A DNA stretch of 64,000 nucleotides from Candidatus Uhrbacteria bacterium (GCA_903827265.1 CAIKHN010000024.1:3332-67331), one strand, 5' to 3'; positions 41,787 through 41,811 are shown, counted from the first letter of the stretch. Numbers and translations: made by a program. Notes: generated by a model not told the origin, from the letters alone.

Positions 41787-41811
41787 ATTATAACACGAAC
41801 AGAATACGAAC
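41787..41811 (-). promoter_or_regulatory. promoter region: GTTCgtattctGTTCG motif plus TATAAT -10 upstream of the tRNA-like gene
   Basis: Minus strand reads GTTCGTATTCTGTTCGtgtTATAAT. It matches the lexA-upstream motif at 15 of 16 positions, and the -10 lies about 18 nt before the mature tRNA 5' end. Confidence 0.4.

What the first reader, a model, noticed from the sequence alone, without database searches (positions are those of the whole stretch)
41787..41811. Near-identical lexA-type 16-mer sits on the promoter of the tRNA-like gene; related TCTGTTCG elements abut -10 boxes at rpsB and elsewhere
The minus strand reads GTTCGTATTCTGTTCG-tgt-TATAAT, versus GTTCGTTTTCTGTTCG-gc-TATGAT at lexA (15 of 16 identical). 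rpsB has CTGTGTTCG-a-TATATT just before its ATG, which implies a leaderless or very short leader mRNA. 12333-12356 has TGTTCGgcTATCGA. Either this organism's promoters use a TCTGTTCG element immediately 5' of the -10, or LexA controls an unusual tRNA-like gene.
Basis: seen in the sequence. Interest (0 to 1): 0.5.

Follow-up and report, generated by a model that had tools for sequence, protein, structure and literature searches.

The report
LexA operator on an odd tRNA gene
In this uncultured Uhrbacteria (candidate phyla radiation) genome the DNA-damage repressor LexA most likely switches off a small stand-alone gene for an alanine-type tRNA whose anticodon loop carries one extra base, so DNA damage may switch on an unusual decoder RNA.

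Summary
The 16-mer is real. On the minus strand, 41811-41796 reads GTTCGTATTCTGTTCG, 15 of 16 identical to the site before lexA (38051-38066). It abuts an extended -10 (TGtTATAAT) about 19 nt upstream of a tRNA-like gene (41768-41696).

It is a GTTC-N7-GTTC direct repeat. This motif sits on the lexA promoter in 55 of 79 related Patescibacteria loci. The window has a third copy before a Bro-N gene.

The unit of box, -10, tRNA-like gene and terminator recurs directly after eno in six Uhrbacteria lineages. There the box is the best conserved segment. It is absent as a clean indel in other relatives.

The supposed general promoter element is not supported. The rpsB and 12333 sites are single half-sites at chance frequency.

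The regulated RNA is the interesting part:
- its scaffold is tRNA-Ala (invariant G3:U70, A73);
- its helices covary;
- an 8-bp leader-trailer helix is conserved;
- its 8-nt anticodon loop reads N-U-[YRUC]-A-U, which is the tRNA-Ala loop plus one base.

The best reading is a LexA-repressed, damage-inducible, alanine-accepting tRNA that may read GAY or GAYR. Regulation is well supported by comparison. Function is inferred.

The parts
41796..41811 (-). Predicted LexA operator, GTTCGTATTCTGTTCG (GTTC-N7-GTTC direct repeat), over the -35/spacer region of the tRNA-like gene's promoter
   Evidence: Weight-matrix score 24.8 bits, above all 100 shuffles. 14 of 16 columns are invariant in six lineages.
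41787..41795 (-). Extended -10 promoter element TGtTATAAT (TATAAT = 41792..41787)
   Evidence: Read directly from the sequence. GTG(T/C)TATA(A/C)T is conserved in all six lineages. That it acts as a promoter is inferred.
41773..41780 (-). Inferred transcript start (about 41780) and 5' leader strand GUCGGAUU, which pairs with the 3' trailer
   Evidence: It starts 7 nt after the -10. The 8-bp helix is paired in 100% of cells, with one compensatory change and three wobble changes.
41696..41768 (-). tRNA-like gene. It has a tRNA-Ala scaffold (G1-C72, G2-C71, G3:U70, A73), a 5-bp anticodon stem with a mismatch at its middle pair that is never paired, and an 8-nt anticodon loop CUUAUCAU. CCA is not encoded here.
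   Evidence: Rfam aligns an 8-nt loop. Covariation. Comparison with ordinary tRNA-Ala genes.
41679..41686 (-). 3' trailer strand AAUCCGGC of the leader-trailer helix
41647..41672 (-). Intrinsic terminator of the tRNA-like transcript (stem AAUCGCC/GGCGAUU plus a U run)
   Evidence: 17 of 22 columns are invariant and the helix is 100% paired.
41811..41844 (-). Terminator hairpin of eno. Its T run adjoins the operator and marks the upstream edge of the cassette.
   Evidence: The hairpin is kept by compensatory changes (helix 1). The indel boundary is seen.
38051..38066 (+). LexA operator 1 on the lexA promoter (GTTCGTTTTCTGTTCG), followed by the -10 TATGAT at 38069-38074
   Evidence: (30.4 bits)
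38077..38091 (+). Degenerate inverted second copy GAAC-N7-GAAT, downstream of the lexA -10 and overlapping the start codon
   Evidence: (11.4 bits on the minus strand). 34 related loci have GAAC-N7-(G/A)AAC after the -10, most often (27) 2 nt after it.
38090..38725 (+). lexA gene. The repressor has a LexA DNA-binding domain and an S24 peptidase domain. The Ala-Gly cleavage site and the Ser and Lys catalytic residues align with E. coli LexA.
   Evidence: TIGR00498, 191 bits against a cut-off of 111
38788..41181 (+). Genes downstream of lexA on the same strand: a MazG-like gene, an 83-aa ORF and a Y-family DNA polymerase IV (dinB). They probably form a lexA operon.
   Evidence: The same order is seen in relatives.
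18572..18587 (-). Third GTTC-N7-GTTC site, GTTCGTGTTTTGTTCG, 48 nt upstream of a Bro-N domain gene (18524..17706)
   Evidence: (14.8 bits, marginal by matrix)

Best explanation
The 16-mer is an SOS operator. A LexA dimer binds the GTTC-N7-GTTC direct repeat, which lies directly upstream of an extended -10 (TGtTATAAT), and blocks RNA polymerase. After DNA damage LexA cleaves itself and the promoter fires.

The promoter makes a monocistronic RNA of about 130 nt with three parts:
- a 5' leader that pairs with the 3' trailer;
- a 73-nt tRNA-like domain;
- an intrinsic terminator.

The tRNA-like domain derives from tRNA-Ala. It keeps the acceptor-stem identity set for alanyl-tRNA synthetase (G1-C72, G2-C71, G3:U70, A73) and normal D and T arms. 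Its anticodon loop has eight bases, N-U-[YRUC]-A-U, which is the tRNA-Ala loop with one extra base between G35 and C36.

My committed reading is as follows. After processing, and CCA addition where CCA is not encoded, the RNA is charged with alanine. It acts as a damage-inducible decoder of Asp codons (GAY) or of GAY-R quadruplets.

Shown here:
- the sequence, motif identity and position of the site;
- its conservation across lineages;
- the RNA structure and its covariation.

Inferred, with my estimates:
- LexA binding and damage induction, about 0.8;
- alanylation, about 0.6;
- use on the ribosome, about 0.35.
For: Motif:
- The site is 15 of 16 identical to the site on lexA's own promoter.
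- GTTC-N7-GTTC lies 1-4 nt before a -10-like hexamer upstream of lexA in 55 of 79 related loci. 34 of these also carry an inverted copy after the -10.
- The same motif precedes dinB in L075 and a Bro-N gene in the window.
- GTTC-N7-GTTC is a published LexA motif type (PMC8565304). A Patescibacteria LexA study is cited for direct-repeat recognition (PMC7739468).

Repressor:
- The lexA product is a canonical, cleavable LexA.

Significance:
- The score of 24.8 bits exceeds the maximum of every one of 100 shuffles.

Footprint:
- In six lineages whose flanking genes are about 70-85% identical, the box has mean identity 0.96, the three bases joining it to the -10 are invariant (1.00) and the -10 scores 0.94. 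The 7 nt between the -10 and the transcript start score 0.55.
- Every copy of this tRNA-like gene found (window, L002, L003, L004, L093/94, L095/96/100/101) carries the box.

RNA:
- Rfam tRNA scores 46.3 bits with an 8-nt loop.
- 97% of cells are paired. 8 pairs show compensatory change, which 0 of 500 shuffles reach. G3:U70 is invariant.
- Ordinary tRNA-Ala(UGC) genes with the same acceptor and T arms differ by one missing base in the anticodon.
- ARAGORN itself calls a 4-base anticodon in L095.
Against: - There is no binding or expression data. Everything rests on sequence comparison.
- Only one operator copy is present here, whereas lexA has two.
- The scan tool found no canonical -35 on this strand, so the promoter rests on the extended -10 alone.
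- The minor bacterial alanine determinants G4-C69 and G20 are absent (C4-G69, U20). The ordinary tRNA-Ala genes recovered with the same acceptor stem also have C4-G69.
- The anticodon stem carries a conserved internal mismatch. In three lineages an A-U pair could close the loop to 6 nt. The RNA may therefore not decode at all.
- No +1 frameshift target was found in the window.
- In-frame GAT|A shows no specific depletion.
- A related odd tRNA-Ala-like gene in L019/L026 has no box.
Confidence: 0.78

Rival explanations
1. The TCTGTTCG/GTTCG motif is a general promoter element of this organism, an upstream extension of the -10 read by the sigma factor. It is not a repressor site. The tRNA-like gene, lexA and rpsB simply share a strong promoter type.
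For: - GTTCG abuts a -10-like hexamer at lexA, the tRNA-like gene, rpsB and the gene starting at 36509.
- TGTTCG followed by a -10-like hexamer occurs 6 times against 2.2 expected.
Against: - Once the two full repeats and the general excess of TGTTCG (87 against 66) are set aside, nothing remains. GTTCG next to a -10-like hexamer occurs 10 times against 7.7 expected.
- Most promoters with a -10 near the start codon lack the motif.
- The full motif is a two-half-site repeat, and at lexA an inverted copy lies downstream of the -10.
- In more distant relatives the repeat abuts the start codon itself (L065-L080).
- The full repeat occurs only three times in intergenic DNA in 64 kb.
Confidence: 0.04
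2. The box is bound by LexA, or once was, but the tRNA-like gene is a decaying tRNA-Ala pseudogene or a relic of a mobile insertion. The regulation then has no functional output.
For: - The cassette is missing as a clean indel of about 190 nt in many close relatives (L001, L005, L007, L085-L091).
- The anticodon arm is aberrant and CCA is not encoded in the window or L003.
- ARAGORN fails to call the L002 copy.
Against: - Six lineages keep all four helices plus a leader-trailer helix and a terminator, with compensatory changes.
- The irregular features themselves are conserved: the 8-nt loop with U33 and A37 flanks, the mismatch at the middle pair of the anticodon stem, and G3:U70. They have not drifted.
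- The promoter elements are the most conserved columns.
Confidence: 0.07
3. The promoter is LexA-controlled but the RNA is not a ribosomal decoder. It could be an Ala-tRNA donor for a non-ribosomal reaction such as cell-wall or lipid aminoacylation. It could also be a tRNA mimic that titrates or resists a tRNA-directed enzyme during the damage response, for example an anticodon nuclease or a modification enzyme that recognises the UGU/GUC loop.
For: - The conserved mismatch in the anticodon stem and the non-canonical loop would disfavour normal decoding.
- The conserved leader-trailer helix suggests that the longer RNA may itself be the functional form.
- No frameshift target was found.
Against: - The T arm is identical to that of ordinary tRNA-Ala genes, so nothing suggests avoidance of EF-Tu.
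- The loop keeps U33 and A37 exactly around four bases, as in quadruplet decoders.
- No partner enzyme gene travels with the cassette. Its neighbours are eno, a PEBP-family gene and, in one lineage, a TrmB-family gene.
Confidence: 0.3
4. The motif is recognised by a regulator other than LexA that happens to share targets with the lexA promoter.
For: No direct binding data exist, and the motif assignment rests on autoregulation logic.
Against: - The best and most widely conserved instance sits on lexA's own promoter in dozens of genomes.
- Other instances precede a Y-family polymerase.
- The motif type GTTC-N7-GTTC is an established LexA motif in other phyla (PMC8565304).
Confidence: 0.04

Closest known systems
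LexA/SOS operators of the direct-repeat type (GTTC-N7-GTTC of Alphaproteobacteria; the Patescibacteria LexA regulon of Sanchez-Osuna, Barbe and Erill, Environ Microbiol 2017)
   Same: - The half-sites and spacing are the same (PMC8565304).
- The site lies on the lexA promoter, which implies autoregulation.
- A Y-family polymerase belongs to the regulon.
- The operator overlaps the core promoter.
   Different: - The regulated gene here is a stand-alone tRNA-like RNA, not a protein-coding repair or mutagenesis gene.
- I could not read the 2017 paper because it is not held. I therefore cannot say whether it lists this target. Full-text searches found no report of a LexA-controlled tRNA gene.
+1 frameshift-suppressor tRNAs and engineered quadruplet-decoding tRNAs (SufB2, SufJ; DeBenedictis et al. 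2022, PMC9094753; PMC4238358)
   Same: - A normal tRNA body with one extra base in the anticodon loop, giving 8 nt.
- U33 and a purine at position 37 flank four bases.
   Different: - Those tRNAs are laboratory mutants or engineered molecules. This one is a natural gene conserved across lineages and has its own damage-controlled promoter.
- It combines alanine identity with an Asp-like RUC core.
- Decoding has not been tested.
Natural tRNAs with mismatched identity or enlarged loops (yeast mitochondrial tRNA-Thr(UAG) with an 8-nt loop; Ashbya mitochondrial CUU/CUA-to-Ala tRNA; G3:U70-bearing mistranslating tRNA variants)
   Same: - An 8-nt anticodon loop can still read triplets (PMC7609411).
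- G3:U70 brings alanine to a non-Ala anticodon (PMC11415595, PMC3874161).
   Different: - Those are constitutive parts of a reassigned code or sporadic variants.
- Here the gene is accessory, present in some lineages only, and sits behind an SOS operator.
Ordinary bacterial tRNA-Ala(UGC)
   Same: - The acceptor stem GGGCUGA/UCGGUCC with G3:U70, A73, the D arm and the T arm are nearly identical to ordinary tRNA-Ala genes recovered from metagenomes (L081, L083, L084).
   Different: - One extra base lies between G35 and C36 (UGC becomes UGUC, UAUC or CGUC).
- The anticodon stem carries a conserved mismatch.
- A conserved leader-trailer helix is present.
- The gene has its own LexA-type promoter and terminator.

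Membership tests
LexA (SOS) operator | Matches the LexA-binding motif of the clade, as defined by the site on lexA's own promoter | tested here: met
   15 of 16 identical to the window's lexA site. It scores 24.8 bits on a matrix from 49 distinct lexA-promoter sites, above all 100 shuffles.
LexA (SOS) operator | Lies within or overlaps the core promoter of the regulated gene | tested here: met
   The box ends 3 nt before TATAAT and adjoins the TG of an extended -10. The tRNA-like gene starts 19 nt after the -10. The promoter itself is inferred, not mapped.
LexA (SOS) operator | Conserved at orthologous promoters across species | tested here: met
   Present in all six lineages that carry the gene. 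Mean identity is 0.96 for the box against 0.55 for the adjacent spacer.
LexA (SOS) operator | A cleavable LexA repressor is encoded in the genome | tested here: met
   TIGR00498 scores 191 bits. The Ala-Gly site and the Ser and Lys residues align with E. coli LexA.
LexA (SOS) operator | LexA binds the site, and the gene is induced by DNA damage | not testable with these tools
   Needs EMSA or ChIP, and expression data after DNA damage.
tRNA (RF00005) | Cloverleaf with conserved U8, A14, G18G19 and a T loop, scoring above the Rfam gathering threshold | tested here: met
   46.3 bits against a gathering score of 29. The helices covary.
tRNA (RF00005) | Seven-base anticodon loop on a regular 5-bp stem | tested here: not met
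   Rfam and my own model both align an 8-nt loop. The middle pair of the stem is unpaired in 6 of 6 sequences. The canonical loop has 7 nt (PMC7609411).
tRNA-Ala | Major identity set: G3:U70 with A73 and G1-C72/G2-C71 | tested here: met
   Invariant in 6 of 6 sequences. Identity set from PMC9976931 and PMC11415595.
tRNA-Ala | Minor bacterial determinants G4-C69 and G20 | tested here: not met
   The RNA has C4-G69 and U20. The ordinary tRNA-Ala genes L081-L084 also have C4-G69.
tRNA-Ala | Anticodon NGC, reading GCN codons | tested here: not met
   The loop is CUUAUCAU, AUUGUCAU or AUCGUCAU. ARAGORN calls Asp (atc or gtc) or a 4-base anticodon 'gtca'.
tRNA-Asp | GUC anticodon in a 7-nt loop, plus the G73 discriminator (G73 as the Asp discriminator is from my own knowledge of bacterial Asp identity, not checked here) | tested here: not met
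   The discriminator is A73 in all copies. The window and L003 have AUC, not GUC. The loop has 8 nt.
+1 frameshift-suppressor / quadruplet-decoding tRNA | One extra nucleotide in the anticodon loop, with U33 and a purine at 37 kept | tested here: met
   N-U-[4 nt]-A-U in all six sequences. There is one base more than in ordinary tRNA-Ala.
+1 frameshift-suppressor / quadruplet-decoding tRNA | Demonstrated four-base decoding or frameshift suppression, or a genomic target that needs it | tested here: inconclusive
   No +1 frameshifted gene pair with a GAT-A/G site was found in the 64-kb window. There is no specific avoidance of GAT|A.

The most novel reading that the evidence does not exclude
DNA damage-inducible recoding. 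The SOS repressor keeps silent an alanine-accepting tRNA with a four-base anticodon (UAUC, UGUC or CGUC). Once derepressed, it either inserts Ala at Asp codons, giving regulated proteome-wide mistranslation, or shifts the ribosome +1 at GAY-R. This would be a translational counterpart of SOS mutagenesis, or a switch for a hidden frameshifted gene. A second, box-less relative (UGAC loop) lies just after dinB in other Uhrbacteria. That would make expanded-anticodon tRNA-Ala derivatives a recurrent companion of the lexA-dinB locus.
Probability: 0.25. Interest if true: 0.9.

Novelty: new variant of a known kind. Interest (0 to 1): 0.62.

Why it matters
SOS regulons are known to control repair, mutagenesis, cell division and mobile elements. 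I found no report of a tRNA gene under a LexA operator. The candidate here is also not an ordinary tRNA. It is a conserved tRNA-Ala derivative with an expanded anticodon loop, the architecture used in the laboratory to read four-base codons.

If it decodes, this would be a natural, stress-gated change in how the genetic code is read, in a lineage with a very small genome. The claim is directly testable with a handful of in vitro and reporter experiments.

Even if the RNA turns out not to decode, it adds a structured non-coding RNA to the SOS regulon of the candidate phyla radiation.

Tried and rejected
1. General promoter element. I counted GTTCG, TGTTCG and TCTGTTCG next to -10-like hexamers against shuffles and inspected 62 gene starts. 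I rejected it because half-sites are at chance level.

2. The 12333-12356 site. It lies at the 3' end and terminator of a minus-strand gene with no plus-strand gene downstream, so it is not a promoter.

3. More homologues by DNA pattern.
These were useful as a comparison but added no further cassettes.
- Two viral-contig scans found nothing.
- Further cassettes came instead from contigs encoding homologues of the PEBP-family protein.

4. Programmed +1 frameshift target. I scanned all same-strand ORF pairs in the window for a +1 junction with in-frame GAT-A/G. No convincing case emerged. Adjacent genes have their own starts.

5. Avoidance of the cognate quadruplet. GAT|A is 18.7% against 25.3% overall, but GCT|A is 7.7%. 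This is general T|A avoidance and is not specific.

6. tRNA-His-like G-1. The extra G before the acceptor stem is present only in the window and L003, and is a T in other lineages. Rejected.

7. A 6-nt loop closed by an A-U pair. This is possible in three lineages but the window and L003 have C.U there. It is not conserved.

8. The Patescibacteria SOS paper (PubMed 28618189) is not in the held library. What it reports about targets could not be checked.

Full report
**Observation**

The minus strand at 41811..41787 reads GTTCGTATTCTGTTCG-tgt-TATAAT. The plus strand at 38051-38074, just before a 211-aa ORF, reads GTTCGTTTTCTGTTCG-gc-TATGAT. The two 16-mers differ at one base.

ARAGORN and Rfam both place a tRNA at 41768..41696 on the minus strand, 19 nt after the TATAAT.

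The 211-aa ORF is a canonical LexA:
- It has the Pfam domains LexA_DNA_bind and Peptidase_S24.
- It matches NCBIfam TIGR00498 at 191 bits against a cut-off of 111.
- The Ala-Gly cleavage site and the Ser and Lys catalytic residues align with E. coli LexA.

**What the motif is**

The 16-mer is a direct repeat, GTTC-N7-GTTC. A pattern search finds a third intergenic copy, GTTCGTGTTTTGTTCG at 18587..18572 on the minus strand. It lies 48 nt upstream of a Bro-N domain gene.

GTTC-N7-GTTC is a published LexA motif type for Alphaproteobacteria (PMC8565304). A study of the Patescibacteria SOS network is cited for direct-repeat recognition by LexA (PMC7739468). That study is not held, so I could not read it.

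**Organism and comparative evidence for the operator**

A scan of reference genomes with the LexA protein returned 80 loci at 60-99% identity. Most are labelled Candidatus Uhrbacteria or Patescibacteria.

Their lexA upstream regions share one architecture: cTTGc-GTTCggtttttGTTCgg-TATAAT-ac-GAACataagacGAAC.
- Of 79 loci with enough upstream DNA, 55 have the direct repeat 1-4 nt before a -10-like hexamer.
- 34 of these also have an inverted copy after the -10, most often 2 nt after it.

A site that flanks the -10 on both sides and in both orientations is an operator, not a sigma-factor element.

A weight matrix built from 49 distinct lexA-promoter sites scores the three window sites as follows:
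- lexA site: 30.4 bits.
- tRNA site: 24.8 bits.
- Bro-N site: 14.8 bits.

In 100 shuffled windows the maximum score averaged 13.3 and never exceeded 23.4. In L075 the same motif directly precedes dinB.

**The alternative reading**

It fails on counts:

| Pattern | Observed | Expected |
|---|---|---|
| TCTGTTCG | 4 | 3.6 |
| GTTCG within 1-4 nt of TAnnnT | 10 | 7.7 |
| GTTCG-N6-GTTCG (full repeat) | 4 | 0.48 |

- rpsB has one half-site only.
- The 12333 site lies in the terminator region of a minus-strand gene.
- The remark that rpsB is leaderless is reasonable. 12 of 62 gene starts have a -10-like box 4-10 nt upstream, and only 6 have a Shine-Dalgarno-like motif.

**The cassette**

The tRNA-like gene lies between eno (43189..41930) and a PEBP-family gene (41630..41172). 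It is 3.6 kb from lexA, whose probable operon continues with a MazG-like gene, an 83-aa ORF and a Y-family polymerase.

The same unit lies directly after eno in the window, L002, L003, L004, L093/L094 and L095/L096/L100/L101. In order, the unit consists of:
- the T run of the eno terminator;
- the box;
- TG-n-TATAAT;
- about 6 variable bases;
- a leader;
- the tRNA-like gene;
- a trailer;
- a terminator.

In L001, L005, L007 and L085-L091 the unit is absent. In L085-L088 the gap is a clean indel of about 190 nt between the eno terminator and the -10 of the PEBP-family gene.

Conservation by segment across the six lineages, whose flanking genes are about 70-85% identical:

| Segment | Mean column identity |
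|---|---|
| Box | 0.96 |
| Three bases joining the box to the -10 | 1.00 |
| -10 | 0.94 |
| 7 nt between the -10 and the inferred transcript start | 0.55 |
| eno terminator hairpin (kept by compensatory changes) | 0.77 |

A covariance model of the RNA found no further copy among 1.4 Mb of related loci. Every copy found therefore carries the box.

**The RNA**

Rfam aligns the acceptor stem as GGGCUGA/UCGGUCC. The D and T arms are normal. The anticodon stem is CCCGG/CCUGG with a mismatch at its middle pair, and the anticodon loop has 8 nt.

Across six sequences 97% of cells are paired and eight pairs show compensatory change, which 0 of 500 shuffles reach. In detail:
- G3:U70 is invariant.
- The middle pair of the anticodon stem is never paired.
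- An 8-bp helix between the 5' leader (GUCGGAUU, starting 7 nt after the -10) and the 3' trailer (AAUCCGGC) is fully paired, with one compensatory change.

The RNA is therefore under selection as a structure. It is not a decaying pseudogene.

The acceptor stem, A73 and the T arm match ordinary tRNA-Ala(UGC/GGC) genes recovered from metagenomes. In the model alignment these ordinary genes differ by one missing base between G35 and C36.

The loop is N-U-[YRUC]-A-U:
- UAUC in the window and L003.
- UGUC in L004, L093 and L095.
- CGUC in L002.

ARAGORN calls these copies tRNA-Asp (atc or gtc) or a four-base anticodon 'gtca'.

[quoted passage not shown] Eight-base loops are the hallmark of +1 frameshift suppressors and engineered quadruplet decoders (PMC4238358, PMC9094753). 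They can also read triplets, as in yeast mitochondrial tRNA-Thr (PMC7609411).

**Mechanism**

The anatomy shows an operator overlapping an extended -10 promoter, which drives a monocistronic, terminated, structured tRNA-like RNA.

These steps are inferred:
- LexA represses the promoter.
- DNA damage relieves the repression.
- The RNA is processed.
- It is alanylated.
- It then reads GAY or GAY-R.

I found no frameshifted target gene in the window and no specific avoidance of the cognate quadruplet. A non-decoding role, as an aminoacyl donor or a tRNA mimic, therefore remains a serious alternative for the RNA's function. That alternative does not affect the regulatory conclusion.

**Novelty**

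The operator type and LexA autoregulation in this superphylum are known. A LexA-controlled tRNA gene, and a natural tRNA-Ala derivative with an expanded anticodon loop, did not turn up in full-text searches. I rate it a new variant of a known kind. The decoding hypothesis carries the upside.

Noticed in passing
L019 12692-12767 (+); L026 8271-8346 (+): A second kind of tRNA-Ala-like gene. It has G3:U70, A73, encoded CCA, a leader-trailer helix, a trailer ...CCGGGACCAACAA and a terminator. Its anticodon loop is enlarged (UUUGACAC, that is UGC with an inserted A). It lies directly after dinB on the lexA-operon strand, convergent with eno. No GTTC-N7-GTTC box lies upstream. ARAGORN calls it tRNA-Ser(tga).
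   Followed up: partly
window 52728-52706 (rpsB), 36527-36507, 41650-41628 and other gene starts: Many transcription-unit heads have a TATAAT-like or TAGAAT-like box only 4-10 nt before the start codon (12 of 62 gene starts). Shine-Dalgarno-like motifs are rare (6 of 62). This suggests widespread leaderless or near-leaderless mRNAs in this organism.
   Followed up: partly
window 41693-41932 compared with L003 13415-13652: The whole eno-to-tRNA intergenic cassette is 95-100% identical between the window and L003, while the flanking genes (eno and the PEBP-family gene) are only about 80% identical. Either constraint is very strong over 240 nt of non-coding DNA, or the cassette was recently exchanged between lineages.
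   Followed up: partly
window 41874-41861 (minus strand): TGTTCGAAAGAACA, with inverted GTTC/GAAC arms and a GAAA loop, lies in the eno 3' untranslated region. It is conserved (with one loop-base change in L093) in the five cassette-bearing lineages where this region could be read (window, L002, L003, L004, L093) and is absent from cassette-free relatives. It could be a GNRA hairpin in RNA or an extra pair of LexA half-sites.
   Followed up: no
window 41695-41693; L002, L004, L093, L095: CCA is encoded after the discriminator in four lineages. In the window and L003 it is replaced by TGG. Those two lineages also carry the G35-to-A change (UAUC).
   Followed up: no
window 38077-38091 and lexA loci L001-L064: lexA promoters carry a dual operator. 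A direct repeat lies upstream of the -10, and an inverted copy usually starts 2 nt downstream of it. In the window the inverted copy overlaps the lexA start codon.
   Followed up: yes
L001 13246-14723 (minus strand): Where the window has the tRNA-like cassette, the otherwise syntenic L001 (LexA 99% identical) has two protein genes of 199 and 255 aa of unknown function. The spot downstream of eno is therefore a variable region.
   Followed up: no
L081 3792-7648; L083 2342-9790: Metagenome contigs recovered by the tRNA-Ala pattern carry dense arrays of 10-16 tRNA genes within 10 kb. One gene has an unassigned 2-base 'anticodon' call. Their origin is unknown.
   Followed up: no
window 24001-28000: G+C content rises to 0.56 against about 0.50 elsewhere in the window.
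   Followed up: no
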